Assembly: GCA_965237955.1 (NCBI GenBank)
Contig: OZ250169.1
Location: forward strand, 960,001-1,024,000
Reading direction: 5' to 3'
Source of the DNA: Candidatus Marinacidobacterales bacterium
GTDB lineage: Bacteria; Acidobacteriota; Vicinamibacteria; Marinacidobacterales; SMYC01
Length of the DNA stretch: 64,000 bases
Shown: in pieces, positions 3,780 to 63,417 of the stretch
Position numbering within the stretch: position 1 is the stretch's first letter
How the letters are laid out: the number at the start of each line of letters is the position of its first letter
Translations under genes and position numbers: made by a program
Notes under the pieces: model-generated
Seen by the model: the letters and a program-made list of their open reading frames with translations, nothing else
Database searches by the model: none
Told to the model about the DNA's origin: nothing

Positions 3780-3797
3780 CAGTTTCTTGACCACACG
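3780..3797 (+). repeat. Divergent ACG-type element end
   Basis: cagtttcttgaccacacg resembles gagttttggcacaggacg and gagtattttgacctcacg. It lies between two unrelated truncated genes. Confidence 0.4.
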
Positions 3798-4111
3798 AGG
3801 ATGTCGATCCCCGTCGTCATGCGGGTGGGGGGATCGTGCTTCCAAAGCTCAATCCCGGTGCTGCCGTCGGCGGCGTCGAAGAACAAGGCGCCGTTCACTG
3901 CCGTCAGCTCGGCAGGAAACGACGAGCTGCCACCGGGGAAGACATCGGCAACCCGCGCGGTCAAGCCGGTGGCTGGATCATGCTTCCAAAGCTCGACCCC
4001 CGTGATGCCGTCGTCGGCGATGAAGAACAAGGCGCCGTTCACCGCCGTCAGCTGGAAAGGAACCGACGAGCCGCCACCGGGGAAGATGTCGGTTGCGCGG
4101 TTGAATGGCAA
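3798..4111 (-). pseudogene. Fragment of an ELWxxDGT-repeat surface protein (two tandem ~47-aa repeats)
   Basis: DIFPGGGSS.P.QLTAVNGALFF.A.DG.TG.ELWKHDP occurs twice. No signal peptide; both ends look truncated. Confidence 0.8.
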
Positions 4112-4234
4112 TAGCCGCCGCCGCCCTTTGGATGCGACGAGGCTTTCCTACGGCCGATATGAGCCTTGATCGAGGGGCGTCCAAGCCGACACAGAACCCG
4201 GAGCGCCATCGGCTACCTTGCCGGGATTACTTTA

Positions 4235-4657
4235 TCAATAGCCAGGCTCCGGCGGGGGTGAGCTCGCACCTACTCGGATCGAGCCCTTCATGTCACAACA
4301 GTTCGAGTGCGCGGTGCAGGCGTACTCGAATGTCCTTCCGTCGTCCCCGCCGCCGAAGGTTCTTTCGAAAGTGGCCCCCGGCTGCGTGAACACTAAGCCG
4401 CTATCCCAGGCTCCGTCCTTGGCAGTGGACGTGTGGGTTGGGTCGGCGCCCCGGTGAACCCAGCGCACCATCTGGCCGGCCTGAATCGTGATCGACTTGG
4501 GCCGGTATTCATTCTCGAAGATCTCAACCGTAACCACTACGGGGGAAGGCGCCGCCGTCGTCGTTGCGGTCGGCGAGTTGCTGCCACCTCCGTTGCCGCA
4601 GCCAAACACCATGAGACCCACCATTAGAGATGGGATAGCCGTTATTTTCTTTAACAT
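4235..4657 (-). CDS. Cupredoxin (plastocyanin/azurin-like) lipoprotein
   Basis: Lipobox-like MVFGC, Thr/Pro linker, PKSITIQAGQMVRW, His in PTHTST and a C-terminal YACTAHSNCCDM copper loop. Confidence 0.85.
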   Translation of the reverse strand: MLKKITAIPSLMVGLMVFGCGNGGGSNSPTATTTAAPSPVVVTVEIFENEYRPKSITIQAGQMVRWVHRGADPTHTSTAKDGAWDSGLVFTQPGATFERTFGGGDDGRTFEYACTAHSNCCDMKGSIRVGASSPPPEPGY

Positions 4658-4852
4658 GTTCTGCCTCCAAATGCGGCCCATCGGGCTCCAACAAGAGATG
4701 ATCCCCACAGGATAACCCTCAGGTAAGCAAGCCGCGTGCCAAGATGGAAGGGCGGCGGGCTTCTAAAGGATTAGAACTGCAGGGGATCGCCTCACGCGGG
4801 ATCGTGGGGAAGCGACGAGACTTTACGAGACTCGTAAGGCGAGTCACTCTTA

Positions 4853-6779
4853 GGGCCGGCGACAAAATAAGTTCCCGTTTTCAAGACGGTCGGATGGTGT
4901 AGTTCCATTTGGGTAGAGTCTGGTCCTTTGTAACGGAAAGCGCCTGCATCCGCTCGTCAGTGATTTTGACGCCCTTCGGATAACGACGCCGGATAAGGTG
5001 TGCGCGTACTCGCAAACCGGAAGAGGTGGTGGTCGTGCGGATGTATTTGAGGATGGTTTCGTAGCTGTCGAGAGGCCTGCCCGCCCAGTTCTTGCTGATC
5101 TCGCTGAACAGACGGTGCTCCACTGGATTCCACTTGGATGTACCGGACGGATAGTGGGCTATGGTGATAGCGATGTCGTGGCGATTGCAAATCCGCGTTT
5201 GAAGCCCGTGCTTCCAACCCCGACACCGATAGCCATTGCTGCCCCCGGCGTCTGCCAATATCGCGAGGTCACGGGCTGCAGGATAGCGTCGCCGTCCTTC
5301 CGTTCGCCACCACTTCTCGATGGCATTCACGGCGAAGTCCGGGGTGTTGTACGAGGTACCAATGAACACTGTCCCGCGGTTCGCGAGCAGATCGTAGACG
5401 CCGTAGGGGATTGCGATGCCGTTCGATTCGGAACGGAAGTCATGGTCTTTGACGAGAGTCGGCTCACGGTTCCAGGCCTGCCCGCCGTTTTTGAATAATC
5501 CCACCAGCTCCCGTTTCTTCGTGTCTACGCTGATGATGGGATGACCAGCTGCGGCAAAACGCTCGCGCAGTTCGGCGATACACGCGAATTGGGTATCGCG
5601 ATCTTCGGACGTGGCACCGCACAGCTTCTTGTGGTTCACCCGCAACGAGAAGCCGAGCTGTTTGAGCAGTCGACCGACGGTTTTGCTGCTGACGTTCACA
5701 CCGAGGCTTCTTAGCTCGCAAGCAATCTTGTCGGTGGTCCGCCGCGTCCATTTCACTCCCGTCATCGGATCGCCCGCGGTGTCGTGCTTCATGAGTTCTT
5801 CGATCTTGGCGATGACTTCTGGCGTTTTTTTTTGCACGGCGCGCCGTCCGCCACCCTTTCGCCGAACTCCGTCGAGCTCAACATCTCTCATTAGGAATTC
5901 CCTACGACCTCTGGCTACCGTGCTCGGATCCATCCCGAGCAGTTCGGCAATCTGTTGGTCGCCACCGTGACCGAGCTTCATGGCCTCGACTCCCGCGTAG
6001 AGACGGCGCTGCTTTTCATCGAGCAGGCTGTAGAAAAGAACGATCGCAGCCTTCAACTCCACGGGGAGCACGCGGACTCCCCCGACCCAGCCCAACGTGG
6101 AAGGTGACGCCTCATGTACCTGGCGGGCCGAGAGCTGTTGCTTGCGCGTGCTCACATCGGTGGCCAGATACAGATATCGGCCGAACACCTGCTCGCGCGC
6201 CAATCTTTTCTCTCGGACCAGTTTCAACAGAGGAGCCTTGACGTCAACCTGCACCACGTCCTCGAGCTCGTCGACGTAGTAGCCTGCCTCACAGGCCGCG
6301 ACCAACGCTTTTACCGTCGCAAGCAACGTCCCGTACTTCGAGAACCACACTGAGCGCAACGACCAAAGACCTTTTCGATCGAACTGGGCGATCTCGTCCA
6401 ACGTGTAGTAGCTACCACGGTGGGAGTAGCTTGTCCGATACGCCAACTCATTGAGCTTTCGGAAGACGGTCGAGTCCACATCGGTACCCAACACTGCCTT
6501 CAAATCATCGAGGGTAGCTATTTTGTGCTTCCTCAACAGGCGGTCGAGATCTTCAGACTGATAGCTCGTAGGTCTCATAATAGGAGAAGTGCTCCTTGAT
6601 AGGCGTAATCCTCCCTAAAATGAGGACCGTTTGTCAAACACGCGCTGGTTGCTGAAGATCTACAAATGTTCCGTTTCTAGGGAGCTTGCCAGGCTCTCGT
6701 GATGCCAGACGACATCGCGATCACGACCTGAAACAGGAAGAGTGTGCTCAAAACTAGACAGTTATTTTGTCGGCGGCCC
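4853..6779 (-). mobile_element. ISAzo13-family insertion sequence
   Basis: IRs gggccggcgacaaaataa / ttattttgtcggcggccc, flanked by TTA on both sides; encodes the transposase 4881..6578. Confidence 0.88.
4881..6578 (-). CDS. ISAzo13-family transposase
   Basis: TAGDPM..KWT, ISVDTKKRELVG.FKNGG, DHDF, ADAGGSNG, SKWNPVEHRLFSEISKNWAGRPL, WNYTIRP. Confidence 0.92.
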   Translation of the reverse strand: MRPTSYQSEDLDRLLRKHKIATLDDLKAVLGTDVDSTVFRKLNELAYRTSYSHRGSYYTLDEIAQFDRKGLWSLRSVWFSKYGTLLATVKALVAACEAGYYVDELEDVVQVDVKAPLLKLVREKRLAREQVFGRYLYLATDVSTRKQQLSARQVHEASPSTLGWVGGVRVLPVELKAAIVLFYSLLDEKQRRLYAGVEAMKLGHGGDQQIAELLGMDPSTVARGRREFLMRDVELDGVRRKGGGRRAVQKKTPEVIAKIEELMKHDTAGDPMTGVKWTRRTTDKIACELRSLGVNVSSKTVGRLLKQLGFSLRVNHKKLCGATSEDRDTQFACIAELRERFAAAGHPIISVDTKKRELVGLFKNGGQAWNREPTLVKDHDFRSESNGIAIPYGVYDLLANRGTVFIGTSYNTPDFAVNAIEKWWRTEGRRRYPAARDLAILADAGGSNGYRCRGWKHGLQTRICNRHDIAITIAHYPSGTSKWNPVEHRLFSEISKNWAGRPLDSYETILKYIRTTTTSSGLRVRAHLIRRRYPKGVKITDERMQALSVTKDQTLPKWNYTIRPS

Positions 6780-9349
<2,570 letters not shown>

Positions 9350-9352
<3 letters not shown>

Positions 9353-9471
9353 GCCGCGGCCGAACCCCGGGCGATGTGGGGCTGGTTTCGGGGGGTTGCT
9401 GGGGTATGGCCTGGCTCGAGAAGACGCTTCCTGAGGCATTCTCGCGCGTCGTTTTGGCGCCGCATCGTCTG
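9350..9471. repeat. ~120-bp internal piece of the IS21 3' region (copy of 43358..43480)
   Basis: acctgccgcggccgaacccc...cgcatcgtctg is the same sequence as 43358..43480. Confidence 0.9.
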
Positions 9472-9548: not shown

Positions 9549-9552
9549 GACG

Positions 9553-10605
9553 TTAACTCACTGCGAAGTCTATAAGGTCCGGCAACGCACCCGCGCCGGT
9601 TAGAACATTCACCGTGTCACGGTCCTCGGCGCAGGGTCCGTATGTTTTATCGAGCCGGTCGCGAAAACTTTCCAGCGCCGTAATGGAACGGCCACCGTAA
9701 TCGTCATTTCCGGAAATCGGGTCGAGGAAGGCGGCAGCGAGGCTGCGCGGTTGACCCGAGCCTTTTTCGCATAGCGCGTAGAGGGCATAGGCGCGACTCG
9801 CGAAACTCGCCTGCTTGCCCCTTGGCGCGACGGTGGCAGCGGCTTCCACCAGGGCGGCCAAGCTTGCGTCCTGCACAGCCCGCGTACCGTCGAGATTGCG
9901 GAGCAACAGATCGCGGTCGACGCAAATATAGAGATAGAAGACGCCAGCGCCGAATTCCTGCACGCCAATAAATCCGGCCCCGGAATCCTCAGCTTCACCG
10001 CGCGACTTGAGGTCGTCGACGGCGGTGTAGTAATCGTCCTCGGCGACCGCGCGATGCGTGGTGATGGCGTGCGCTACCTGCACGGCGGCTTCGCGGTTGA
10101 ATTTCGGATTGTCGGCCAGCATCCGCCCGAACATGGCGATATCGGCGGCCGTGTCGGTCTTGCGCAACAGATCGGCGGCTTTGGGCTCAATGGTTTCTCC
10201 GGACAGCGCGCGGTCGGCGAGCGCCAGGGCTTCCGCCCGTTCTGCGGGCGAGACGAAGGCAAGCTGTTCGATGAAGGTAGGATCCTTGTCGCCTTCTTTG
10301 TGGATTTTGCCGAAGACACCGGCGATCACACGCGACACCTCCACGGCTTTGCCTTCATCCATCTCGCCGTTGAGCAAATAATCATAAATCTCTTTGCCCA
10401 GACGTTGCGTGCGGCTCGCGAGGTGTCCGCCGAGCTTCGCCTGGAACGCATTGGACTCTCGCCATGCCCGTTTCAAGCTTTGCGAGGACACACGCAGGCG
10501 TGGTGTGCCGCCGAAGACGGCGCTTTTCGGCCTACCGGTATCGTCCCGGTTTAGGTTGGACGGGCCGTAGGCGGTAAGAAGATGCAGTTGTAGGAAATCG
10601 GCCAT
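9553..10605 (-). CDS. cas7e: Type I-E Cascade backbone Cas7/Cse4/CasC
   Basis: FLQLHLLTAYGPSNLNRDDTGRPKSAVFGGTPRLRVSSQSLKRAWR, DIAMFGRMLAD, AAVQVAHAITTH, DDYYTAVDDL, PRGKQASFA. Confidence 0.96.
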   Translation of the reverse strand: MADFLQLHLLTAYGPSNLNRDDTGRPKSAVFGGTPRLRVSSQSLKRAWRESNAFQAKLGGHLASRTQRLGKEIYDYLLNGEMDEGKAVEVSRVIAGVFGKIHKEGDKDPTFIEQLAFVSPAERAEALALADRALSGETIEPKAADLLRKTDTAADIAMFGRMLADNPKFNREAAVQVAHAITTHRAVAEDDYYTAVDDLKSRGEAEDSGAGFIGVQEFGAGVFYLYICVDRDLLLRNLDGTRAVQDASLAALVEAAATVAPRGKQASFASRAYALYALCEKGSGQPRSLAAAFLDPISGNDDYGGRSITALESFRDRLDKTYGPCAEDRDTVNVLTGAGALPDLIDFAVS

Positions 10606-11090: not shown

Positions 11091-11485
11091 TTGCGCGGCG
11101 TCCAGATTCGACCGGTGAGTGTCTCGACCATGTGATCGTCCTCGACGAGCGGCTGTCCCTTCCATAAACTTGAGCTGCATCTTCACCGCACGCGGTCGCT
11201 CTCTACGTCATTTTGTGGCGGTCGTGCGCGTCTCAGTTACCGTCTGCCTCACGGAATCTGACGCAGCCCAGTTTCCCACGTTCTCCTGGCCGACCGATCA
11301 GACAACGGCTGCCTGATCAACAGCGAATGTCGCAAGCACCGGACGATGTTTCCAAGAACGAACTTTTTCCTGCAGCGGACACCCGGGTGTGTGGGAGAAT
11401 TGAGCCTTGCCCAATCGCCCGGCATTGGAGTGAGGGAAGAAAGTCGGCCTATCTTCAAGGCCAAGAATATCAGGAAGATCTGAGC

Positions 11486-13468
11486 ATGGAGGGAAGCCGA
11501 CTCAACTGGATCGCCAACTTCATCTGGGGCATCGCGGATGATGTGCTGCGCGACCTCTACGTTCGCGGCAAGTATCGGGATGTGATCTTGCCCATGACCG
11601 TGCTGCGGCGGCTCGACTCGCTCCTTGAGCCGAGCCAGCCGGCCGTGCTGGAGATGAAAACCTCTCTAGACAAGGCGAAGATCATCCACCAGGATCAGGC
11701 ACTGCGTCAGGCTGCTGGTCAGTCTTTCTACAACACATCGAAGTTCACGCTGCGCGACCTCAAGGCCCGTTCCAGCCAACAGCAGCTCAAGGCTGACTTT
11801 GAGGCGTATCTTGACGGTTTCTCGCCGAATGTCCAGGACATCCTGGAGAAGTTCGAGTTTCGGAACCAGATTCCCCGCCTATCCAAGGCCGATGCCCTCG
11901 GCACGCTGATCGAGAAGTTCCTCTCGCGGGACGTGAACCTGAGTCCCCACCCGGTCCTCCATGGTGACGGGTCGATCAAGCACCCCGGCCTGGATAACCA
12001 CGCGATGGGCACGATCTTCGAGGAGCTGGTCCGCCGCTTCAACGAGGAGAACAACGAGGAGGCCGGCGAGCACTGGACCCCGCGCGATGCCGTGACGCTG
12101 ATGGCGAAGCTGGTCTTCTTGCCTGTCGCCGACCAGATCGACTCGGGGACCTACCTGGTATACGACGGCGCCTGCGGCACGGGTGGCATGTTGACAGTGG
12201 CCGAGAAGACGTTGACGCAGCTCGCCGAGCAGCGCGGCAAGCAGGTCGCCACCCATCTCTACGGCCAGGAGATCAACTCCGAAACCTACGCCATCGCCAA
12301 GGCGGATCTCCTCCTCAAGGGCGAGGGAGAAGCCGCCGACAACATCGTCGGGGGGCCGGAACACTCGACGCTCTCCAACGACGCCTTTCCGTCTCGCGAG
12401 TTCGACTTCATGCTCTCCAACCCGCCCTACGGCAAGAGCTGGAAGAACGACCTGGAGCGTCTGGGTGGCAAGGCGGGCATCAAGGACCCGCGCTTTCTGA
12501 TCGAACACGGCGGTGATGCTGAGTACTCGCTCATCACCCGCTCCAGCGACGGTCAGATGCTGTTCCTGGCGAACATGCTCTCGAAGATGAAGCGCGACAC
12601 CCCGTTGGGGAGCCGCATCGCCGAGGTCCACAACGGCAGCTCGCTCTTCACCGGAGACGCCGGTCAGGGGGAGAGCAACATCCGCCGCTGGATCATAGAG
12701 AACGACTGGCTGGAGGCGATCGTCGCCCTGCCGCTCAACATGTTTTACAACACCGGCATCGCCACCTACATCTGGGTGTTGACCAACCGCAAGCCTGAGC
12801 CCCGTCGAGGCAAAGTACAGTTGATCGACGCTACCGGGTGGTACCGGCCGCTCCGCAAAAACCTCGGCAAGAAGAACTGCGATCTGTCCGAGGAGGACAT
12901 CACCCGCATCTGCGACACGTTCCTGGCCTTCGAGGAGACCGAGCAGTCGAAGATCTTTCCGAACGCCGCCTTCGGGTACTGGAAGGTGACAGTCGAGCGA
13001 CCCCTCCGGCTCACGGGGATCGACCCCGACCGGGCTTACGCGGCGAAGGAGGTCAAGGCGCTCAAGGAAACCGCCGCGCGGGACGAGAGTGCCCCGCCCG
13101 TTATCAGGAAGATCCACAAGCGCGGTATCGACCCCAACCCGCTGGTCGGCCTGTTCACGGCGACCGTCAGCGGGAAGCGATGCGTCGTCGAGTACGAGCC
13201 GGACAGCGACCTGCGTGACACCGAGCAAGTGCCGCTATTGGAGGAGGGCGGCGTCGAGGCGTTCCTGCGCCGTGAGGTGCTCCCGCACGCAGCCGACGCC
13301 TGGTACGTCTCGGACAGTGTCAAGACCGGCTATGAGATCAGCTTCACCCGCTACTTCTACAAGCCGCAGCCGCTCCGCACGCTGGAGGAGATCCGCGCCG
13401 ACATCCTGGCGGTGGAGAAGGAGACCGAGGGGCTGCTCGGCGACATTCTCAATATCTCGGAGAATTAG
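11486..13468 (+). CDS. hsdM: Type I R-M methyltransferase
   Basis: NFIWGIADDVLRD, AGEHWTPRD, YDGACGTGGML, YGQE, NPPY, YEPDSDLRDTE, GYEISFTRYFY. Confidence 0.96.
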   Translation: MEGSRLNWIANFIWGIADDVLRDLYVRGKYRDVILPMTVLRRLDSLLEPSQPAVLEMKTSLDKAKIIHQDQALRQAAGQSFYNTSKFTLRDLKARSSQQQLKADFEAYLDGFSPNVQDILEKFEFRNQIPRLSKADALGTLIEKFLSRDVNLSPHPVLHGDGSIKHPGLDNHAMGTIFEELVRRFNEENNEEAGEHWTPRDAVTLMAKLVFLPVADQIDSGTYLVYDGACGTGGMLTVAEKTLTQLAEQRGKQVATHLYGQEINSETYAIAKADLLLKGEGEAADNIVGGPEHSTLSNDAFPSREFDFMLSNPPYGKSWKNDLERLGGKAGIKDPRFLIEHGGDAEYSLITRSSDGQMLFLANMLSKMKRDTPLGSRIAEVHNGSSLFTGDAGQGESNIRRWIIENDWLEAIVALPLNMFYNTGIATYIWVLTNRKPEPRRGKVQLIDATGWYRPLRKNLGKKNCDLSEEDITRICDTFLAFEETEQSKIFPNAAFGYWKVTVERPLRLTGIDPDRAYAAKEVKALKETAARDESAPPVIRKIHKRGIDPNPLVGLFTATVSGKRCVVEYEPDSDLRDTEQVPLLEEGGVEAFLRREVLPHAADAWYVSDSVKTGYEISFTRYFYKPQPLRTLEEIRADILAVEKETEGLLGDILNISEN

Positions 13469-13611
13469 CAATGACAGACGCGCCCAAGGTTTATCTCGTC
13501 AGAGCTGGCCGAAATGGTGAAGATGAGGACTACGCGCTAACGCATAATCTCGCCATCATAGGCTTTCAGAATGTGCCATCTCTAGAAGGGACGAAAGGCT
13601 ATGATGAGCTA

Positions 13612-14794: not shown

Positions 14795-14796
14795 TA

Positions 14797-14923
14797 GTTC
14801 CCTGTATCAGAACAAACTAGATAAAGCAGAGCTTGCCGAAACCATTCTAAGTGCATGAATCTTATGAATCTTATGGGCTGGCGAAAAGCCTAACTTTGTA
14901 TAGTAATCAAAAATCCAGGGGAC
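14797..14923. mobile_element. ~127-bp MITE-like element related to the adjacent IS630
   Basis: Bounded by CTAG. Its right end atccaggggactag is the inverse of the IS630 end ctagtcccctggat. AT-rich and non-coding. Confidence 0.75.
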
Positions 14924-23139: not shown

Positions 23140-23140
23140 G

Positions 23141-23578: not shown

Positions 23579-23675
23579 CACCGAACGTTCGCTCTTGTGC
23601 TCGATAAAGTCCAGTCTAATGAGGGGCTTCCGGGTGCGCAGTCCGCTGCCCGCAGCTCGCCCCGCAGCCCAAGGG

Positions 23676-24090
23676 TCGGCGGATTCCAAGGGCGTCTAAG
23701 CTGCTGATTTGTGGTCTATTTCAAGAGGGCCGAGTTTTGGCACAGGACGCGGTTCTCCTCTTGCTGGTAGTCGATCACATCCTGCTGCTGGCGGTTGACC
23801 CAGCCAGCTAGAACGAGCAGTAGGAATTGCGCGTGGTACGTCATCATGGATCTGAAGATAACACCCTCGGGCCAGACGATTGTAAAGCCTACGGCCCTTG
23901 GCCCGGTCGCAAACACAGACACTAAGCTGCTGATTTATGGTCTATTTCAAAAGGGCCGAGTTTTGGCACAGGACGGGGTCGGAAGCCAGCCCTGCGGCGC
24001 GAAATACCCTCGATTCTGCGCGGATTCCAAGGGCGTCTAAGCTGCTGATTTGTGGTCTATTTCAAAAGGGTCGAGTTTTGGCACAGGACG
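23676..24090 (+). repeat. Head-to-tail stack of three ACG-type element ends (ending 23749, 23975, 24090) enclosing a 5' scrap of the rve transposase
   Basis: ctaagctgctgattt(a/g)tggtctatttcaa(a/g)aggg(c/t)cgagttttggcacaggacg occurs three times in the same orientation. Confidence 0.92.
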
Positions 24091-25531: not shown

Positions 25532-25661
25532 CGTCGTGTCCAAAAATACAAACGAACTCTAAGACCCACGCGCCGGGACGTCACCGAGTTCATCTATCAT
25601 TCATCATGGAGAGCGCAACCATTAAGGGCTTGGCAACGCGTTTGTGTTTTTGGACACGACG
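25532..25661. mobile_element. 130-bp mini-element (MITE) of the ACG-end family carrying a transposase scrap
   Basis: TIRs cgtcgtgtccaaaaa(t/c)acaaacg. The interior encodes HHGERNH*GLGNA, the rve transposase C-terminal motif. Confidence 0.8.
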
Positions 25662-39325: not shown

Positions 39326-40155
39326 CGTCCTGTCCGAAAACGGGAACGGAGCGGCAAGGTCGAATCCTAGAGGCGTTCTCAAAACTCGCGGAGACCAGCC
39401 GACGCGGTACTGGCTCTGCGATAGGCGACCCCGAGCAGACCTCTCCTGCAGACCATCCGTTCCGTCCAACTGGCGCGCCCGAACTCCTATGCGGCGTCGC
39501 GGTGGTAATAGCTGAGCAAGCCGCCCAATCGCTTACGACATCGCACCTTCTCGTGAGGACTGCCGACGCATTCTTCCGCTTCGAGCAACGCGTTCCCGAG
39601 CCCTTGATGGTTGCGCTCTCCGTGATAATGATGGATGAACTCAGCGACGGCACGGCGCAGCGATTGCTCACTGAAGAAGATCATCCGCTCCAAGCACTCG
39701 CTCTTGATCGACAAAACAAACCTTTCGACGTAAGCGTTCAGATTCGGCGAACGGTGCGGCAGCCGAATGACGTCCGTTCCGGCGTGCTCGAGCAAATCGC
39801 GAAACTCCGTGGTGAACTTCTTGTCGTGGTCCAGGATGAGGAATCGCTTGCCGCGCAGAAAGCCGTCGAATGGGTCGGTGAGATTCCGACCGACCTGCAT
39901 CATGAACGGGCCATCCGGCCCCGGAGTGATTCCGGCAATGTGCACTTTTCGCGAAGACAGCTCGATGACGACGAGCACATAGTTAGGTCACGAGCCTGCG
40001 AACTGTGGCGACCTCGACGGTGAAGAAGTCGATCGCAGCAACGGTTTCCCAATGGGCGGCGAGAAACGTGCGCCACGGCGTCCGCTCACCTCGCTCCGGC
40101 GCGGGCTCGATGCCATGTTCTCGCAGAATATTGGCGATGGTGCTCCTGGCTACCG
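39326..40155 (-). mobile_element. 3' part of a second, divergent integrase-core (rve) element
   Basis: End cgtcctgtccgaaaac; [53 protein letters not shown]. Cut at 40155 by an ACG end. Confidence 0.85.
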
Positions 40156-40266
40156 CGTCCTGTGCCAAAACTCGGCCCTTTTGAAATAGACCACAAATCA
40201 GCAGCTTAGACGCCCTTGGAATCCGCGCAGAATCGAGGGTATTTCGCGCCGCAGGGCTGGCTTCCG
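40156..40266 (-). repeat. Sibling ACG end (inverse copy of 23980..24090)
   Basis: Outer ~54 bp match the TIR; the inner part matches 23980..24036. Confidence 0.9.
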
Positions 40267-41704
40267 CGTCCTGTGCCAAAACTCGGCCTTTTTTGAAATA
40301 GGCCATAAATCAGCAACTTAGTGTCTGTGTTTACGACCGGGCCAAGGGCCGTGGGCTTTACAATCGTCTTGGGCGGGCGGGTCGTCACCATGCAGATGAC
40401 CACCTAGTCGAGAGCGAATATCGAAGCGTGTTCCTGAAGCGGTTTCCACGCTACGCCGGTCGAGCCCGCCGAGGGGCTACCGTCGCCGGCGACCATCTAC
40501 GCGGCACGGCAGTAGTAGTTGAGAATGCCCCCAAGTCGCTCTCGCGACACGATGGGGCCAGCGTCATTCGCGCTTGCCGGCAGAGGTGTGAGGAGCTCGT
40601 TGCCGAGACCTTGGTGGTTCCGTTCTGTGTGATAGTGCACTACGTATTCGGTTACCGCTGTGCGCAGGTGTCGCTCACTGAGAGGTACGAAGCGGTCGAG
40701 ACACTCTCGACGTATGGAGAGAACGAATCTTTCCGCATATGCGTTCAGATTCGGACTATTAGCGGGAAGGCGAAGGGGCTTCACGCCTGAATCTCTCAAC
40801 AGCCCACGTACCGCCTCGGTGAATAGCGGGTCCCGGTCGTGGATGAGGTATCGCTTGCCAAGGAGGAAACCATCCCACATGTCAGTGAGGTTTCTTGCCA
40901 CCTGCTTCATCCACTCCCCGTTGGGGTCCGACGTTATCCAGGGCAGTACACCGATGCACACGCAGCGAGTGGCGATATCGATGACAAACAGGACATGGTA
41001 GCGGACGAGCCCGAACGGGTTCACAACCTCGACGATGAACAGGTCTGTCGCAGCGATGGCGCCCCAATGAGCCTTGATGAAGGTGCTCCACGACATGCTC
41101 CTGCCCCGCTCCGGCGCAGGAGCGATACCGTGCTCGGCGAGGAGCCTCTTGATAGTGTTGCGTCCGAGTTCATGTCCTAGGTTCTTGAGTGCGCCTCGCA
41201 GGCGCGTATATCCCCACGTCGGGTTCTCCCGCGCCACGCGCACAATGAGCTCACGGATGTCCTTCGCCGTCGGAGGTCGGCCTGGACTCCGGTTCTTGCT
41301 GCCATCGTACTTGGCTGCGATGAGGTGGCGGTACCAGCGCAGAAGCGTAGCGGGTGTGGCAACGGACGCAATCTGGGCCAGCGCCTCGCGGCCCAAAGCC
41401 TGGGCCTTGACGGCGAGCCTGCGCCGCTCGTCGTCCGAGAGACTGAGACGCTTGCCCCGAAGCCCGGCTCGGAGCACACGGTTCTCCTCTTGCTGGTAGT
41501 CGATCACATCCTGCTGCTGGCGGTTGACCCAGCCAGCTAGAACGAGCAGTAGGAATTGCACGTGGTACGTCATCATGGAGCTGAAGATAACACCCTCGGG
41601 CTAGACGATTGTAAAGCCTACGGCCCTTGGCCCCGGCGCAAACACAGACACTAAGCTGCTGATTTATGGCCTATTTCAAAAGGGCCGAGTTTTGGCACAG
41701 GACG
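40267..41704 (-). mobile_element. Full-length long-TIR integrase-core element, copy A
   Basis: ~102-bp TIRs CGTCCTGTGCCAAAACTC...; single transposase; no TSD. Confidence 0.9.
40497..41576 (-). CDS. Integrase-core (rve/DDE) transposase
   Basis: 359 aa. [12 protein letters not shown] region, [28 protein letters not shown]. 9-nt insertion relative to the sister copies. Confidence 0.9.
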
Positions 41705-43020: not shown

Positions 43021-43542
43021 GTCGGACGACGACCGACGACCGACGGCAGAGGAGCAGAGACTACTGGAGCGGCTGACCGACTGGACGGCCGACACCGTCA
43101 TAATCGCGAAGGCGTCCTGTGCCAAAACTGCGTATTCCAGCCATCGTGAACGCCGAATCCAGAGCAAGCTGAACAGCGAATCCGGTGAAGCCGAACGCTC
43201 ATCGAAGCGATGAAGTGTTGGGTGACCTCCTTTCCACTGATTGAAAACGTGAACCTATCTTACCTGCGTGTTGTGTAGCAAGGGGCGGCAGGTCGGTGCC
43301 GGAGGGAGCGGGCGTAAGGAAAGACGCGAAGCGACCTTCCCGCTCCCGTAGGCAGCGACCTGCCGCGGCCGAACCCCGGGCGATGTGGGGCTGGTTTCGG
43401 GGGGTTGCTGGGGTATGGCCTGGCTCGAGAAGACGCTTCCTGAGGCATTCTCGCGCGTCGTTTTGGCGCCGCATCGTCTGGTACCCCGGGTTTGGCGGTT
43501 TCACCCGTTTTTATCGCATCGACGCTGTGGTCCCTCGCTCGC

Positions 43543-45667: not shown

Positions 45668-47097
45668 CGTCCTGTGCCAAAACTCAGCCCTTTTGAAATA
45701 GCCTATAAATCAACAGCTTAGCGTCTGTGTTTGCGACCGTGCCAAGGGCTGTAGGCTCTACAATCGTCTTGGGTGGACGGGTCGTCACCATGCAGACGAC
45801 CACCTGGTCGAGAGCGAATATCCAAGCGTGTTCCTGAAGCTGTGTTTCCACGCTACGCCGGTCGAGTCCATCGAGGGGCTACCGTCCCGACCACAATCTA
45901 GGCGGCACGGCAGTAGTAGTTGAGAATGCCTCCAAGTCGCTCTCGCGACACGATGGGGCCAACGTCCTTCGCGCTTGCCGGCAGAGGTATGATGAGCTCG
46001 TTGTCGATGCCTTGGTGGTTCCGTTCGGTGTGATAGTGCACGACGTATTCGGTTACCGCTGTCCGCAGGTGTCCCTCACTGAGAGGTACGAAGCGGTCGA
46101 GACATTCTCGACGTATGGAGAGAACGAATCTTTCCGCGTAGGCGTTCAGATTCGGACTATTAGCGGGAAGTCGGAGGGGCTTCACGCCTGAACCTCTCAA
46201 CAGCCCACGTGCCTCTTCGGTGAATAGCGGGTCCCGGTCGTGGATGAGGTACCGCTTGCCAAGGAGGAAACCATCCCACATGTCAGTGAGGTTTCTTGCT
46301 ACCTGCTTCATCCACTCTCCGTTGGGGTCCGAAGTTATCCCACCGATGCACACGCAGCGAGTGACGATATCGATGACAAACAGGACATGGTAGCGGACGA
46401 GCCCGAACGGGTTCACCACTTCGACGGTGAACAGGTCTGTCGCGGCGATAGCGCCCCCATGAACCTTGATGAAGGTGCTCCACGACATGCTCTTGCCCCT
46501 CTCCGGGGCAGGCGCGATATCGTGCTCGGCGAGGACCCTCTTGATGGTGTTGCGTCCGAGTTCATATCCGAGGTTCTTAAGTGCGCCCTGCAGGCGCGTA
46601 TATCCCCACGTCGGGTTCTCCCGCGCCATGCGTACCATGAGCTCACGGATGTCCTTCGCCGTGGGAGGTCGGCCTGGGCTCCGGTTCTTACTGCCATCGT
46701 ACTTGGCTGCGATGAGGCAGCGATACCAGCGCAGCAGCGTAGAGGGTGTGGCAACGGAGGCAATCTGGGCTAGCACATCACGGCCCAAGGCCTGGGCCTT
46801 GACGGCGAGCCTACGCCGGTCTTCGTCAGAGAGCCTGAGACGCTTGCCCCGAAGCCCGGCTCGGAGCACACGGTTCTCCTCTCGCAGGTAATCAATCACA
46901 TCCTGCTGCTGGCGGTTGACCCAGCCAGCCACAACGAGCAGTAAGAACCGCACGTGGTACGTCATCATGGAGCTGAAGATAACACCCTCGGTCCAGACGA
47001 TTGTAGAGCCTACAGCCCTTGGCCCGGTCGCAAAACACAGACGCTAAGCTGTTGATTTATAGGCTATTTCAAAAGGGCCTAGTTTTGGCACAGGACG
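45668..47097 (-). mobile_element. Full-length long-TIR integrase-core element, copy B
   Basis: TIRs at 45668..45769 and 46995..47097; no TSD. Confidence 0.92.
45898..46968 (-). CDS. Integrase-core (rve/DDE) transposase, apparently intact
   Basis: 356 aa; [30 protein letters not shown]. Confidence 0.92.
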
Positions 47098-47220
47098 GGG
47101 AACCCGAATCGCCGACATCGCCTCCGACACGCCCCAGAACTGGGGCTCGCCACAAGTCGATGACGATCGAAACGGCCCGGCGCGCCAGTCTTGAGTTCGT
47201 TTGTGTTTTTGGACAGGACG
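47098..47220 (+). repeat. ACG end of a third subfamily (paralogue of 51381..51502)
   Basis: cgaatcgccgacatcgcctccgac...tcttgagttcgtttgtgtttttggaca(gg/ca)acg is shared. Confidence 0.85.
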
Positions 47221-47570
47221 CGCAAGCACCAGGCTTGTGCCTTCTATCTATTCATCCGCGCGCACCGAACTTGATTAGTCTCCGGTCTGCCGGCACCATG
47301 ACGAGCTCGCTAATCTCGGCCATGACCCGGGTGTGATCCGCAAAAAAGAAGATCGCGTATCGACGGCCAGACAACCATGAGAGCGATGTCCTGCGAACTC
47401 GTCTTCACCTCGGTGGAGCTTCTGCACGCTTTCGCCGTCGGTTCATCGACGCAATAACGTTCTGGGAAAAGAACGCGTTGGTCGCCACGAGAACCTAGCT
47501 CCGTCAGGCGACGCGTGCCAACCGCGTGAGGTCAAAATACTCATGCGGCTTCCCGTTTGAAGCCGATATC

Positions 47571-48640: not shown

Positions 48641-48822
48641 CCCGTGACGTCAAAATACTCATGCGGCTCCCCGATGGTAGAGACGTAGCAACCCGCCAAG
48701 CCGTTCACGGGAGCGTACCTTGCGCTCGGACTGAGGTAACTGGTCGCTGGCTGGCAACAGCAGCAGATCCTCCTTGCCTTGATGATTCCTCTCGTGGTGA
48801 TGATAAGACGACCTACTCTCTA

Positions 48823-49280
48823 AAGCTCACGGATGTCCTTCGCCGTCGGAGGTCGGCCTGGGCTCCGGTTCTTGCTGCCATCGTACTTGGCTGCGATGAG
48901 GTGGCGGTACCAGCGCAGAAGCGTAGCGGGTGTGGCAACGGACGCAATCTGGGCCAGCGCCTCGCGGCCCAAAGCCTGGGCCTTGACCGCGAGCCTGCGC
49001 CGGTCGTCGTCCGCGAGACTGAGACGCTTGCCCCGAAGCCCGGCTCGGAGCACACGGTTCTCCTCTTGCAGGTAGTCGATCACATCCTGCTGCTGGCGGT
49101 TGGCCCAGCCAGCTAGAACGAGCAGTAGGAATTGCACGTGGTACGTCATCATGGATCTGAAGATAACACCCTCGGGCCAGACGATTGTAAAGCCTACGGC
49201 CCTTGGCCCGGTCGCAAACACAGACACTAAGCTGCTGATTTATGGCCTATTTCAAAAGGGCCGAGTTTTGGCACAGGACG
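48823..49280 (-). mobile_element. 5' fragment plus one TIR of the long-TIR rve element
   Basis: [15 protein letters not shown]...KDIREL, then a full TIR ending at 49280. Confidence 0.9.
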
Positions 49281-51134: not shown

Positions 51135-51502
51135 CCTGTGCCTTCTATTTATTCATCCGCGCGCACCGAACTTGATTAGTCTCCGGTCTGCCGGGACCAT
51201 GCTGGCATGATTTCGTCGTTTGTTCGCGCTCTCGTCTCTAGAGGACCTAGAATCAAGGCCGGGGCTACCGCGGCGCAGCGGGCTAGCACGTTCTGGTCCA
51301 GGTGCAGCCCGGGCCTGGACCCAGGTTTCCGCTCGGGAGCGTGGCATCCCCTTGCTGGACGGTATTTTCCCTGCGCGTACGGAGAACTCGAATCGCCGAC
51401 ATCGCCTCCGACCCCCAGATCTTGAGCTCGCCACGGGTTGATGACGATCGAAACGGCCCCGGCGCGCCGATCTTGAGTTCGTTTGTGTTTTTGGACACAA
51501 CG
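51135..51502 (+). mobile_element. ~370-bp non-coding repeat element; parts recur at 47236, 57920 and 60190
   Basis: tgtgccttctatttattcatccgcgc...ccgaacttgat occurs 3 times, gctagcacgttctggtccaggtg-like twice; ends in an ACG end. Confidence 0.65.
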
Positions 51503-59322: not shown

Positions 59323-60127
59323 GTCACCCTGGGCATGGTGTTTCATCTGTCATCTAGGCAGAGCGAGGGATTGCTGCGGTCGTTGTTCGCTCTGATGAAG
59401 CTAGACAATGATGTGCCCGGTCACACCACGATTTCGAGGCGCAAGGCGAAGCTGGGTAAGGTCCCCTTCTACCAAGACAAGCAGAAGACGCCGTTGCACA
59501 TCTTGATCGACAGCAGCGGTCTCGCTGCCCACGCCGGCCAGCTGCGCAGAGCACCAAAGAGCAGGGACTATCGCAAGCTCCATCTGTGTGTCGACGAGCA
59601 GACTGGCGAAGTCGTCGCCGGCGAGCTGACGAGCAAAAGAGCCCGCGATTCATCGCGGGTTGCATCGCTTGTCGGACAGATCGACAGTCCCATCTCATCG
59701 GCCAGAGCTGACACCGCATACGACGCCGGCGGCGTCTATGAGGCAATCGAGAATCACAGCGCTCATTGCTCGCCGAGGGTGCTGATACCGCCGCGCAAGG
59801 GCGCCCAGCTCGCATCGGGGCCGGCGAGCAGCCGACAGCGCAATCGCAACATTGCAGCACAAGCTCGGCTCGGCAAACGAAAGTGGCACACAGAATCGGG
59901 CTACAGCAAACGGAGCAAAGTCGAGACAACGTTCCATCGCTACAAGGCTATCGTGGGCTCAGCGATGCGAGCGAGAGGGTTGGCGGCACAGAGAGTCGAG
60001 GCAAGGATCGGGTGCAAGATTCTCAACACGATGACGGCGCTCGGGATGCCTGATAGCGAGATGATCGGATGATGGGAGTCGGGGCCAAGCGAGCTCTCGG
60101 CCTCTATCGGAGTTGTGCACCAAGGCA
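59323..60127 (+). mobile_element. IS5-family (IS903-like) element, 5'-truncated
   Basis: LIDSSGL, YRKLHLCVD, ADTAYD, LIPPRK, GYSKRSKVETTFHRYK; right IR gagttgtgcaccaaggc. Confidence 0.85.
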
Positions 60128-60285: not shown

Positions 60286-60369
60286 CAGCCCTTGGCACGT
60301 CCGCAAACACAAGCACTAAGCTACTGATTTATGATCTATTTCAAAAAGGCCGAGTTTTGGCACAGGACG
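60286..60369 (+). repeat. Solo degenerate long-TIR end
   Basis: gcccttggc...gcaaacacaagcactaagctactgatttatgatctatttcaaaaaggccgagttttggcacaggacg. Confidence 0.88.
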
Positions 60370-60759
60370 GGATCGAAGGCGTCATTTCGTTCTTGAAACG
60401 AGTCTTTGGTCTCGACCGATGCACATGGCGCTCATTGCCTTCTTTTAAATCGTACGTATGGGGTTCCATCATCACCTGCAATCTACTGGTGATGGCGAGA
60501 CATCTATTAAGATAATAACTATTACTCTTCCGCTCCCATAGCCTTGGATTCCTGACGATTCGCCTCTCGTTTCGTCCAAGATTTTCATTCGCTCTCAACC
60601 CTACGAAGTTCCCTACCGAAACCGTATAATACCCACATCTTCGGTAGGCCTGTCGCACACCACAAGTTATGGTGTTTCTGGACAGGAACTAGTTAGGACA
60701 GCCCCTTACTTTATGTTCGTCGAAAACCACCGGCACAGAATGCTCTCGAACGGCTTGTC

Positions 60760-63216
60760 ATGACCGATCAGATCGTCATCACAGAGAAATCCAGCCAGGC
60801 GAAGGATGTCCGCGCCGCCGTCGGGTCCCGCTATGGCGCCGTCCTTCCGGCCGAGGGTCACCTGCTCGACCTGTGCGAGCCGGAGGATGTGAACCCGGCC
60901 TGGAAACGCTGGTCCGCGGTACTGCTGAGGCCGGAGGAGCTCTACGGCACCAAACCGGCCTCGGGCGGCAACAAGGCGGCGAAGCTGAAGGCTATCCGCA
61001 TGGCGCTGCGCACCGCCAAACGGGTCTGGCTCGCCACCGATTGCGACCGCGAGGGGCAGCTCATCGGCCAGGAAATTCTGGAGCATTGCGGCTATCGCGG
61101 AGAGGTTCTGCGGGTACTGTTCACCGCGCAGGACGCGCAAACCATCCGCGAGGCGTTCGGCCGCGCCCGGCCCAACAGCGACCATGCTCGCCTCTACGCC
61201 GCAGCTGTCGCGCGCAGGCAAGCCGATCAGATATACAACCTATCGCTGACTCGTACTGCGACCGTCACGCTTGGCCGGGGCGCGCGTGGCGTGATCGGGG
61301 TCGGCCGGGTCAAGACGCCGACCCTGGCGATTGCGTGCAAACGCGAGCTTGAAATCCGAGACTTCGTGCCGGTTCCGTATTACGAGGTGGTGGCCAGCGC
61401 GCATGTCGCGGGCGGCGCATTCCGAATGCGGCACGCGCCGAAGGCGCGCCTTCTCAAGCGCGAGGACGCCGAAGCAGTCGTGAACGCGGCTCGGAACTTC
61501 GAGAGTCGGCTCGGCGTTCGTGTCGAGGACAAGCGGCAACGTCCGCCCAGGCTCCACGATCTGCCTTCGCTGCAGAAGCTTTGCAGTGTCCGGTTCGGCT
61601 GGTCGGCTTCCAAAACCCTGGAGGTCGCGCAAGAACTCTATGACGGCGCGGGCAAAAAGATCCTGACCTATCCACGCGCGGAGGTGCGATACGTGCCGGA
61701 GAGGGCGATCGCGGATGTACCGAAGATTATCGCCGGGCTGCAAGCGGGAAAATCCTACGGTGCCATCCCCGTGCCGTCGCCACCGGTGATCCGCAAGGGA
61801 CGGAACGGCGGCTTCCACGACAAGGGGCTTGAGGGCGCTAGCCATCACGCGGTCATTCTCAACGTCAACACGATTGAAGATCTGGGCGAGATCTGGCCCC
61901 GCCTGTCGGGTGACGAGAAGAAGCTGTTCGACGCCGTCGCGCGGTCGTACCTCGCATCGGTCATGTCCGATTACCGCTACCGGCAGACGACCGTGAGGCT
62001 GGATGTCTGCGGCTTCGAGTTTCGCGCCGTTGGTCGTCAACCCATCGAGCCCGGCTGGTGCGCCGCCTTCCCCGACTGGCGGCCCGCTGAAGAGAAGGGC
62101 GAGGCAGCGCAGGTGCTGCCCGCCCTCCACGACAAGGAGGCCGCGCGGTTGCTCGATCCGGAGATCGAGAAGAGGGAAACCCGTCCGCCGCAGCGCTACA
62201 AGGAAGGAACGCTGATCGAGGCAATGCAAAATGCCTGGCGGTTCGTCAAGGATGAGGTTTTGCGGGACCGCCTCAAGGAGGCCAAGGGGATCGGCACACC
62301 GGCGACCCGGGCAGAGATCATCGCCGGGCTCAGAAAACAGGGATTCTTAACGACACAGGGAAAGAACATCGTACCGACCGACCGGGGGCTGGCACTGTTC
62401 GGGGTTCTCGAACGCGCCGACCCGTCGCTCGTCGATCCGGGCGTGACTGCAGAGCTCGAATGCCTGCTCGACGATGTGGTGACCGGCAGGCAGGAGATGA
62501 TGGGCGCGATCGGCGCGGTGTGCGATGCCGCCCGGCGTATCATCGACAGGCTCGGTGACGACGTCATTGCCGGGAAGGCGTTTGAACTGGGGGAAGCCCT
62601 CGGTGTCGGGAACGGCGGAGAGCGGCCGCCGACGGCGGCAATGAAGCGGTTTGCTGCCTCAATCGCTCGGCGCAAGGGCATCAAGCCACCGGCGGGATAT
62701 ACGAAATCGGGGGCGATCTGCCGGGCGTTCTTGGATCTACATGCGTCAAAGCGAATGGCTCGGGATACAGGTAGGGAACCCACAGGGGCGACGGGGTCCA
62801 GACCGGCTAGTCCGGCACAGGTGTCGTTTGCCGAGGCGATCGCGCGGGAGAAGGGCATCGCTGTTTCCGACGAGACCAGGGTCTGTTCAGCTGAAATGTC
62901 AAAGTGGATTGATGCGAACCGGCAGCCGAAGCCTGCAAAAGGCCGTAAGACGCCCGTATCCAAAACGCGCGGGCCAAAAGCGAAGGGAAAGACAGCACGG
63001 GCGAGAACGCCACGGAAGGAGAAATCGGTAAACGCTGCAGACGGAACGGCGCAATCAGGCCAGTCCCAGACAGATTCGGGGATGGGCACGCCATTGCAGA
63101 TTCCTTACGGCAACAAGGAGGTTGCGCTCCAACTCGGCGCGCGCTACTCGGCGCGCGGCTGGTATGCGCCGCCCGGCGTCGATCTTGTGGCATTCCGCAA
63201 GCGCGGGTGGCTGTGA
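60760..63216 (+). CDS. topB: DNA topoisomerase III, mobile-element type
   Basis: ITEKSSQA, EGHL, ATDCDREG TOPRIM, GRVKTPTL, catalytic TYPR, GIGTPATRA; C-terminal repeats and an IPYGNKE..LGARY tail. Confidence 0.9.
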   Translation: MTDQIVITEKSSQAKDVRAAVGSRYGAVLPAEGHLLDLCEPEDVNPAWKRWSAVLLRPEELYGTKPASGGNKAAKLKAIRMALRTAKRVWLATDCDREGQLIGQEILEHCGYRGEVLRVLFTAQDAQTIREAFGRARPNSDHARLYAAAVARRQADQIYNLSLTRTATVTLGRGARGVIGVGRVKTPTLAIACKRELEIRDFVPVPYYEVVASAHVAGGAFRMRHAPKARLLKREDAEAVVNAARNFESRLGVRVEDKRQRPPRLHDLPSLQKLCSVRFGWSASKTLEVAQELYDGAGKKILTYPRAEVRYVPERAIADVPKIIAGLQAGKSYGAIPVPSPPVIRKGRNGGFHDKGLEGASHHAVILNVNTIEDLGEIWPRLSGDEKKLFDAVARSYLASVMSDYRYRQTTVRLDVCGFEFRAVGRQPIEPGWCAAFPDWRPAEEKGEAAQVLPALHDKEAARLLDPEIEKRETRPPQRYKEGTLIEAMQNAWRFVKDEVLRDRLKEAKGIGTPATRAEIIAGLRKQGFLTTQGKNIVPTDRGLALFGVLERADPSLVDPGVTAELECLLDDVVTGRQEMMGAIGAVCDAARRIIDRLGDDVIAGKAFELGEALGVGNGGERPPTAAMKRFAASIARRKGIKPPAGYTKSGAICRAFLDLHASKRMARDTGREPTGATGSRPASPAQVSFAEAIAREKGIAVSDETRVCSAEMSKWIDANRQPKPAKGRKTPVSKTRGPKAKGKTARARTPRKEKSVNAADGTAQSGQSQTDSGMGTPLQIPYGNKEVALQLGARYSARGWYAPPGVDLVAFRKRGWL

Positions 63217-63385
63217 CGTTGGGGGGTACTTTCGAGTGAACGAACGATTTCGGTCACTCCCCGATGACCTCCGCCCACGCGGGCGGTGCCATTGCTGTCA
63301 ACTTGAACCGAGGTGTCTGTCAGACTAGCCGAATGAAAAGCACCTGGCGCGCCATCGGCTCGGTGCCGCGACCACGATCCCGTCC

Positions 63386-63417
63386 CGTCCTGTGCCAAAA
63401 CTCGGCCCTTTTGAAAT
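63386..63417 (-). repeat. Outer 32 bp of a long-TIR end, interrupted by IS1595
   Basis: cgtcctgtgccaaaactcggcccttttgaaat followed directly by gggaattatatac. Confidence 0.85.

What the first reader, a model, noticed from the sequence alone, without database searches (positions are those of the whole stretch)
3780..63417. About 20 related transposon ends terminate in ...ACG-3', are followed by (C/G)G and show no target duplication
Seen: ends of the form GAGT/GTGT-T-rich-G(G/A)CANNACG or close variants at 3797, 23749, 23975, 24090, 25532, 25661, 39326, 40156, 40267, 41704, 43113, 45668, 47097, 47220, 47525, 48643, 49280, 51502, 60369 and 63386. Insertions into known sequence (own transposase at 23750, IS5 at 24091) place the terminus at ACG, with the CA dinucleotide 5 nt inside. 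By my manual tally, 17 of 20 are followed by CG or GG. Known: IS3, IS481 and retroviral integrases join CA-3' ends and make TSDs. Inference: an atypical end chemistry, or a strong short target preference, shared by several cross-related subfamilies.
Basis: partly seen in the sequence, partly recalled or inferred. Interest (0 to 1): 0.75.

Follow-up and report, generated by a model that had tools for sequence, protein, structure and literature searches.

The report
Deletion-making transposon family without target duplications
A widespread, apparently uncatalogued family of bacterial jumping genes ends in ACG instead of the usual ACA, shows none of the short duplications that mark a normal insertion in the copies examined, and deletes neighbouring DNA up to a one-sided target motif, so it likely joins DNA one end at a time.

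Summary
All 20 ends are real, and 17 of 20 are followed by CG or GG. They belong to 1.2-1.4 kb insertion sequences with one D-D(35)-E transposase that scores far below the IS481 and IS3 cut-offs. The genome holds about 850 such ends. The terminus is ACG-3', in register with the ACA-3' tip of Streptomyces and Bradyrhizobium relatives; the internal CA is irrelevant.

No consistent duplication was found in 29 full-length copies here or in 42 elements from eight phyla, while other IS families in the same regions keep theirs. Empty alleles give a one-sided target, AC(G/T)|GGGT, shared by both ends. None of 222 ends has a partner junction at a consistent offset, and no stagger makes the site symmetric, unlike control families. 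Deletions from the tip to this motif are seen directly (297 bp to 10.7 kb here; 6,405 bp between two Streptomyces plasmids).

Best reading: single-end strand transfer to a polar site is the dominant reaction. A rare ordinary insertion that is later overwritten is not excluded. No description was found in print, and the scan had not noted it on other DNA.

The parts
40267..41704 (-). Full-length family-A insertion sequence (1,438 bp), inverted repeats 5'-CGTCCTGTGCCAAAAC, no TSD
   Evidence: transposase ORF 40497-41576 (359 aa; rve_3, HTH_32)
45668..47097 (-). Second full-length family-A copy (1,430 bp); transposase 45898-46968 (356 aa, D178/D244/E279)
   Evidence: its two flanks match different repeats
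6753..9351 (-). Family-A copy split by an IS3 element; no intact tip detected
   Evidence: repeat families D3-D10; Pfam on 8663-9439 and 7388-8299; no end hit here
3780..3797 (+). Isolated end of a rarer subfamily (..TTGACCACACG), 3 hits in the genome
21478..23749 (-). Large serine recombinase plus DUF2924 passenger bounded by a family-A end at 23749; this end is joined inside the element's own transposase gene by a 297-bp adjacent deletion relative to the copy at G000:2870651
23750..23975 (-). Remnant of a family-A copy (5' part of the transposase plus its left end at 23975)
24073..24090 (+). Family-A end joined 14 nt inside the end of another IS
25532..25661 (.). 130-bp miniature element with two family-B ends, no consistent TSD
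39326..39978 (-). Family-B end (39326) with a transposase fragment (39487-39978, rve_3)
   Evidence: junction inside contigs of runs X1 and X2
40156..40173 (-). Family-A end nested next to the 40267 end; empty target ..CCATA|CGGTAG
43113..43129 (-). 17-bp family-A tip, interrupted on its inner side by an IS21 end
47203..47220 (+). Family-B end
47525..47542 (-). Family-C end (..TTTTGACCTCACG)
48643..48830 (-). Family-C end with the 3' stub of its transposase gene
   Evidence: same sub-terminal sequence as C elements
48824..49280 (-). Remnant of a family-A copy (5' part of the transposase plus left end at 49280)
51485..51502 (+). Family-B end; empty target ..AAAGC|CGCACG
60288..60369 (+). Family-A end; empty target ..CTGCG|GGATCG
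63386..63417 (-). Family-A end truncated on its inner side

Best explanation
These are the ends of a widespread, apparently uncatalogued IS3/IS481-related insertion-sequence family with 5'-CGT..ACG-3' tips whose transposase likely joins one end at a time to a one-sided target, AC(G/T)|GGGT, producing adjacent deletions and probably replicon fusions rather than clean insertions with a duplication. Shown: the tip, the target motif, the lack of partner junctions, and tip-to-motif deletions. Inferred: the DDE enzyme nicks the 3'-G of one end and transfers that single strand to the motif, as in the first step of IS3-family copy-out (recalled), but aimed at a short sequence instead of the partner end. 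Host replication or repair would then fix the junction in one daughter. Repeated rounds from both ends would leave each copy between two unrelated flanks. How a new copy first arrives (two uncoupled half-reactions, or a rare concerted insertion that is soon overwritten) is not shown.
For: (1) No consistent TSD in 29 A copies, 42 A miniatures, 7 B copies and 26 B miniatures, while in the same dense regions other families keep theirs in 6/6, 3/3, 8/8, 7/9, 3/3, 5/6 and 9/19 copies. (2) Partner junctions across empty alleles: 222 of 495 A ends had an empty allele, and none had a partner at a consistent offset (7 scattered hits at +3, +6, +11). Controls gave 32 hits for 59 IS21 ends (28 at -6/-7), 54/86, 8/29 and 4/29, and 2/70 and 5/74 at -9 for two families that mostly lose their TSD; 0/222 against 7/144, p=0.0013. 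(3) Of 34 A end-pairs with both flanks in repeats, none joined at a consistent distance within 6 kb, and no long duplication up to 20 kb was found in 120 pairs. (4) Target A61 C65 K72 | G77 G88 G59 T65 from 188 distinct sites, alike for both end types, replicated with 50 sites from 340 kb of G008. (5) Mirror test: the forward reading beats its mirror image in at least 94% of 189 A sites at every stagger from -6 to +12, whereas controls fall to 0.46, 0.54 and 0.67 at their TSD length. (6) Deletions from tip to motif: 297, 990, 9,271 and 10,653 bp between G000 copies sharing 1.8-3.5 kb of inner context, and exactly 6,405 bp between plasmids of Streptomyces NBC_00053 and NBC_01243. (7) Six near-identical Streptomyces copies have no TSD; the two flanks of one have empty alleles on different plasmids. 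(8) 42 CGT..ACG elements from eight phyla: TSD 0/1/2/3 nt in 29/8/3/2, both flanks GGGT. (9) Intact D-D(35)-E; predicted fold matches IstA, HIV integrase and TnsB.
Against: No intermediate was seen. No end-to-end circle junction was listed in Logan contigs of four runs, which is weak either way. All target data come from junctions in multi-copy DNA, and the empty alleles are paralogues, not the true ancestors. One pair of family-B ends fits a 3-bp TSD at a perfectly palindromic site, and one G000/G008 pair fits a 1-bp TSD. 3-nt flank repeats occur in 2 of 42 foreign elements, 2 of 42 miniatures and one 1,556-bp copy. A TGT-ended relative in this genome (31% identity) keeps a 3-bp TSD in 4 of 16 copies, so the wider group can insert normally. 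One control fell only to 0.67 in the mirror test. The structure model is modest (pLDDT 64.9, pTM 0.47).
Confidence: 0.6

Rival explanations
1. Ordinary two-ended transposition (replicative or copy-out, 1-3 bp duplication) followed by so many secondary adjacent deletions that no primary junction survives; ends keep moving until they sit beside a GG flank that is a poor substrate, which makes the surviving targets look one-sided.
For: The TGT relative keeps a 3-bp TSD in 4 of 16 copies and has 21 of 84 mirror-type (NCC) flanks. One B pair fits 3 bp. The A site has palindromic arms AC..GT. An IS5-family control also loses nearly all TSDs.
Against: Mirror-type flanks are 14 of 495 in family A and T at +1 occurs in 3 of 495. 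Minority flanks do not have the upstream bases a partner junction would need. Two-ended deletion-makers here stay symmetric and leave some partners. Elements from eight phyla look the same.
Confidence: 0.27
2. An excised element is joined by both ends to two separate sites, or into host DNA breaks, so that it sits at the centre of a deletion or duplication, as proposed for an IS481 and an IS5 event by Ngan et al. 2024.
For: Explains new copies with unmatched flanks and no TSD. PMC11708052 (abstract and sections 8 and 10 read) reports an IS481 copy between 60-kb duplicates without a TSD.
Against: A sharp 7-bp target motif shared across genomes argues for enzyme-chosen cuts, not random breaks. 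The observed variants change one flank while the element and the other flank stay put.
Confidence: 0.07
3. Normal insertions whose duplications were separated by homologous recombination between the many copies.
For: About 500 family-A ends lie in one chromosome. This explanation is given for DR-less IS1202 members (passages).
Against: Recombination moves partner junctions apart but keeps both. The genome-wide partner search is blind to position and found none of 222, against 32 hits for 59 IS21 ends.
Confidence: 0.03
4. The true end is the internal CA (or ..GGA) and the last bases are target or duplicated sequence, or the pattern is an assembly artefact.
For: CA lies 5 nt inside in 17 of 20 window ends; 40% of A targets have G at -1.
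Against: Empty alleles lack GGACG, and 60% lack even the G. The five bases vary between subfamilies but are mirrored at both ends. The CGT tip is in register with the TGT tip of relatives. Junctions lie inside short-read contigs, one of them in two studies.
Confidence: 0.01

Closest known systems
IS481 family (NCBIfam NF033577)
   Same: Single ORF with HTH plus rve-type D-D(35)-E core; about 1.2-1.4 kb; short terminal IRs in the TGT..ACA register; best-scoring named model for family A.
   Different: Score 84-95 against a cut-off of 224. Tips are CGT..ACG. No TSD, whereas IS481 members make 2-15 bp, mostly 6 bp (PMC10045372, passages). One-sided target.
IS3 family (NCBIfam NF033516; IS911-type copy-out, recalled)
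   Same: Same catalytic clan; R at E+7; the first step of IS3 transposition is a single-strand transfer by one end (recalled).
   Different: Score 73-78 against a cut-off of 160; one ORF; IS3 copies in this genome show 3-4 bp TSDs in 11 of 27. Here the single-end transfer appears to be aimed at a short motif, not at the partner end.
IS1202 family (Siguier et al., bioRxiv 2022.12.17.520857, passages)
   Same: Distant IS481/IS3 relative, single ORF, tips in the TGT register.
   Different: IS1202 transposases are 400-500 aa with Q at E+7 and make 5-28 bp repeats; this one is 356-360 aa with R/K at E+7 and makes none.
Adjacent-deletion makers with two-ended chemistry (IS1, IS26, IS903; mechanism recalled)
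   Same: Deletions start exactly at the tip; TSDs are often lost; copies sit in dispensable DNA.
   Different: Their targets stay symmetric about a fixed TSD and some partner junctions survive, as for the IS5-family control here (mirror test 0.46 at 9 bp).
TSD-less IS481 and IS5 events of Ngan et al. 2024 (PMC11708052)
   Same: An IS sits between unrelated flanks without a duplication.
   Different: Those are rare events in families that normally make TSDs; here it is the rule across the family, with a defined target motif.

Membership tests
IS481 | Transposase reaches the NF033577 cut-off (224 bits) | tested here: not met
   95 and 84 bits; five relatives 79-110 bits
IS481 | Single ORF with RNase H-fold DDE triad | tested here: met
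   D178, D244, E279 invariant in 18 aligned proteins; fold matches
IS481 | 5'-TGT..ACA-3' termini | tested here: not met
   CGT..ACG in 42 of 48 well-paired elements; same register as TGT relatives
IS481 | Target duplication of 2-15 bp | tested here: not met
IS3 | Transposase reaches the NF033516 cut-off (160 bits) | tested here: not met
   78 and 73 bits; the window's own IS3 scores 307
IS3 | Two frameshifted ORFs, TG..CA tips and a 3-4 bp TSD | tested here: not met
   one ORF; tips and flanks
IS3 | Figure-eight and circle intermediates | tested here: inconclusive
   no end-to-end junction listed in contigs of four runs; contigs drop rare forms
IS1202 | 400-500 aa transposase, Q at E+7, 5-28 bp direct repeats | tested here: not met
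   356-360 aa, R/K at E+7, no repeats; features
Any ISfinder or TnCentral entry | Listed with these ends | not testable with these tools
   database not available; plasmid records label relatives only 'integrase core domain-containing protein'
Two-ended replicative IS (IS1/IS6/IS903-like behaviour) | Symmetric target about a fixed TSD, with some partner junctions kept | tested here: not met

The most novel reading that the evidence does not exclude
A very large DDE insertion-sequence family, found in at least eight phyla, has lost concerted two-end integration altogether. Each end is joined on its own to a short polar motif, so the element spreads and rearranges genomes only through deletions, duplications and replicon fusions: a sequence-targeted genome-trimming and fusing machine.
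Probability: 0.35. Interest if true: 0.85.

Novelty: new variant of a known kind. Interest (0 to 1): 0.72.

Why it matters
DDE transposition is understood as the joining of two ends across one target, with the duplication as its signature. A family in which junctions are nearly all one-sided would widen that picture and give a natural system for the open question of TSD-less IS events raised by Ngan et al. The family is huge (at least 7,997 database proteins) yet labelled only 'integrase core domain'. TSD-based and split-read IS finders would likely miss or misdraw it. It visibly reshapes Streptomyces plasmids and about 30% of this chromosome (800 of 852 ends in 49 of 163 50-kb bins). An intact, identical transposase sits in five plasmids of cultured Streptomyces, so the mechanism can be tested directly. 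A one-ended, motif-directed deleter could also be a tool for nested deletions.

Tried and rejected
1. Terminal CG as a 2-bp TSD, or CA as the true end: rejected; empty alleles lack these bases.
2. Blunt insertion into a palindrome ACCC|GGGT, which full-length copies suggest: rejected; the bases upstream of the cut are AC(G/T), not ACCC.
3. Long or variable TSD up to 20 kb, or a fixed target deletion up to 6 kb: none consistent in 120 A, 47 B and 7 C end pairs. One miniature gave -326 on 16 alleles of one repeat; not followed up.
4. Information beyond -3..+5 in the target: none out to 45 nt.
5. Reading-frame continuity across elements: underpowered (both flanks coding in 1 of 29 A copies and 3 of 44 foreign elements); not used.
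6. Replication-strand bias: weak and inconsistent (A 273:222, p=0.025; B 108:135; C 47:47), with an uncertain origin; not used.
7. Circle junctions: none listed in contigs of four runs and no clear abutted ends in the chromosome; no evidence either way.
8. Phage collection: no match in 50,697 records; fits an element that phages cannot tolerate, but weak.
9. The careful tree did not finish; the quick tree is quoted.
10. The B end pattern also catches some chance hits outside the dense regions, so B counts are upper bounds.
11. Literature searches found no description of this family; one search gave nothing that was used. The telomeric-transposon preprint (passages) concerns TnsB-type elements that still move with two ends. 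The Frankia IS survey (passages) does not describe it. Supplements were not read and could list members under another name.
Full report
OBSERVATION. All 20 positions carry an end that reads ..ACG-3' outwards; 9 are followed by GG and 8 by CG. The window is G000:C1:960001-1024000 of an 8.13-Mb single contig. Close relatives of its transposase lie in MAGs titled Ca. Marinacidobacterales. Genome-wide patterns give 503 family-A, 260 family-B and 85 family-C ends (B includes some chance hits). 800 of 852 ends lie in 49 of 163 50-kb bins. Junctions at 39326, 41704 and 43113 are inside short-read contigs, the first in runs of two studies.

THE ELEMENT. Family A is a 1,428-bp IS with long inverted repeats and one 356-359 aa ORF; two full copies lie at 40267-41704 and 45668-47097. 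Family B (1,348 bp, 360 aa, about 54% identical) and family C are relatives, and there are many 130-400 bp miniatures. The protein has HTH_32 and rve_3 domains and an invariant D178-D244-(35)-E279 with R at E+7. Its model (pLDDT 64.9) matches IstA, HIV integrase and TnsB. It scores 95 against a cut-off of 224 for IS481 and 78 against 160 for IS3. At least 7,997 database proteins are related, the Atlas clusters are unnamed, and plasmid records say only 'integrase core domain-containing protein'. Copies of high identity (up to 96-99%) occur in genomes of other genera and families; 16 of 30 related genomes had a match.

THE TIP. Relatives in Streptomyces and Bradyrhizobium end TGT-N8-(A/T)AAA; this clade ends CGT-N8-AAAA, in the same register. 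The tip is therefore a T-to-C variant, and the internal CA, present in 17 of 20 window ends, is incidental. Of 84 loci examined, 48 had a well-paired IR and 42 of these read CGT..ACG. They comprise 2 from G000, 12 family-A copies from kin (which may overlap the G008 sample) and 28 others at 52-62% identity from Acidobacteriota, Myxococcota, Planctomycetota, Pseudomonadota, Chloroflexota, Verrucomicrobiota, Gemmatimonadota and Spirochaetota. In a quick tree of 41 rows the CGT elements form one clade (34 rows, SH-aLRT 99) beside the TGT relatives (the careful search did not finish).

NO DUPLICATION, WITH CONTROLS. The longest flank repeat was 0/1/2 nt in 25/3/1 of 29 A copies and 0/1/2/3 nt in 30/6/4/2 of 42 miniatures; B looked the same. 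In the same dense bins other families keep their TSD in 6/6, 3/3 and 8/8 (8 bp), 7/9 (3 bp), 3/3 (5 bp), 5/6 (4 bp), 9/19 (IS21) and 3/14 (IS3). Two roughly 1,085-bp families, one of them IS5-type, have lost nearly all of theirs. The 42 elements show 0/1/2/3 nt in 29/8/3/2, with GGGT read outwards at both ends.

THE TARGET IS ONE-SIDED. Many ends sit in repeated DNA, so intact alleles show what lay on the other side of the cut. For 188 distinct A sites the consensus is A61 C65 (G44/T28) | G77 G88 G59 T65 C47. It is alike for both end types and has no signal beyond. Fifty sites from 17 stretches of G008 give A60 C56 (T40/G32) | G78 G86 G70 T62. B and C share the distal half but prefer G at -2. 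A reaction that joins both ends leaves two mirror-image junction types. In a leave-one-out mirror test the controls become symmetric at their TSD length (0.46 at 9 bp, 0.54 at 6 bp, 0.67 at 9 bp), while A stays at or above 0.94 and B at or above 0.86 at every stagger from -6 to +12. A position-blind search for partner junctions found none at a consistent offset for 222 A ends, against 32 hits for 59 IS21 ends and 7 of 144 for the two TSD-losing controls (p=0.0013). Of 34 A end-pairs with both flanks in repeats none joined up.

DELETIONS AND FUSIONS CAUGHT. Copies in G000 that share 1.8-3.5 kb of inner context differ by deletions of 297, 990, 9,271 and 10,653 bp that run from the tip to a target motif; the 297-bp one is the junction at window 23749 (5 of 16 candidate rows were checked). 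In cultured Streptomyces a TGT-tipped relative occurs six times at 99% identity or more without a TSD. The NBC_01243 plasmid equals the NBC_00053 plasmid minus exactly 6,405 bp from the tip to CCCAGT|GGCCG. Two other copies share a left flank and differ on the right, and the two flanks of one have intact alleles on different plasmids. The six empty sites recovered read AGT|GG (twice), GGT|GG, GGC|GG (twice) and AGC|CG. Three Bradyrhizobium copies also lack a TSD.

MECHANISM. Shown: tip, polar target, absence of partners, tip-to-motif deletions. Inferred: one end is nicked at its 3'-G and transferred to the motif, as in the first, single-strand step of IS3-family transposition (recalled), and host replication or repair fixes the junction. 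Repeated rounds would explain nested ends such as 23749/23975/24090, the excess of ends over whole elements (about 500 against 29), the miniatures, and confinement to dispensable DNA. How new copies arise is open.

AGAINST. A TGT relative in this genome keeps a 3-bp TSD in 4 of 16 copies and has 21 of 84 mirror-type flanks, against 14 of 495 for A. One B pair fits 3 bp at a perfect palindrome and one cross-genome A pair fits 1 bp. A rare normal insertion that is overwritten several times per end, with survivor bias for GG flanks, therefore remains possible (0.27). No intermediate was observed.

LITERATURE. IS481 makes 2-15 bp TSDs (PMC10045372, passages). IS1202 features come from bioRxiv 2022.12.17.520857 (passages). 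Ngan et al. (PMC11708052; abstract and sections 8 and 10) report rare TSD-less IS481 and IS5 events and list the usual explanations. Eight searches found no description of this family. ISfinder, subscription journals and supplements were not seen. IS911, IS903, IS1 and IS26 mechanisms are recalled. Earlier scan notes held nothing on this element.

VERDICT. A real, large and apparently uncatalogued IS3/IS481-clan family with variant tips and a one-sided, duplication-free junction pattern. New variant of a known kind, interest 0.72. The reading that it never integrates with two ends has probability 0.35 and interest 0.85.

Noticed in passing
window 21478-23749; G000 608119-611598, 870870-874296, 7895809-7899237 and others: A DUF2924 plus large serine recombinase pair rides inside family-A ends: 37 of 43 DUF2924 hits above 80% identity have an A end less than 500 bp upstream, and there are 32 long recombinase hits. 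The recombinase could offer a separate integration or resolution route.
   Followed up: partly
L011:3576-3580 and L138-L143 (Leptospira plasmids): A distant relative (30%) has a similar left context but seven different right flanks that start exactly after ..GCGAGACTCA or close variants, often immunity or RHS-associated genes. No left inverted repeat was found; an end-like direct repeat lies upstream. It looks like a fixed one-ended element with a variable cassette side.
   Followed up: partly
G000-wide; window 59335-60127: An IS5-family element of 1,087 bp (80 full copies) and a related-looking 1,085-bp family (50 copies) have a symmetric 9-bp target but almost never keep the duplication, even outside the dense regions.
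   Followed up: partly
G000 566783-568128 and 15 other copies: A TGT..ACA relative (31% identity) with a 3-bp TSD in 4 of 16 copies: a possible intermediate state between normal and one-sided behaviour.
   Followed up: partly
window 9553-10605: Cas7-like CT1975 (type I-E Cas7/Cse4) gene next to an IS remnant; no other cas gene among the 40 ORFs scanned.
   Followed up: no
window 11213-20197: Type I restriction-modification operon (hsdM, hsdS, hsdR) inside the IS-dense region.
   Followed up: no
G000 2873717, 3010042, 3128620, 3154602, 3358990; also L024: A recurrent hot-spot flank (..GACT|GGGTGGCGGATGG..) used by several A ends in this and another genome.
   Followed up: no
G000 3660277-3660552: A miniature whose two flanks map 326 bp apart in duplicated orientation on 16 alleles of one repeat; may be an element at the centre of a small duplication.
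   Followed up: no
window 60760-63216: Type IA DNA topoisomerase with a C-terminal DUF5710 domain between two family-A ends.
   Followed up: no
L111:4716-8832 (Streptomyces NBC_00257 plasmid end): TnsA-like, transposase and TniB genes near the end of a linear plasmid, resembling the telomeric transposons of bioRxiv 2024.11.13.623437.
   Followed up: no
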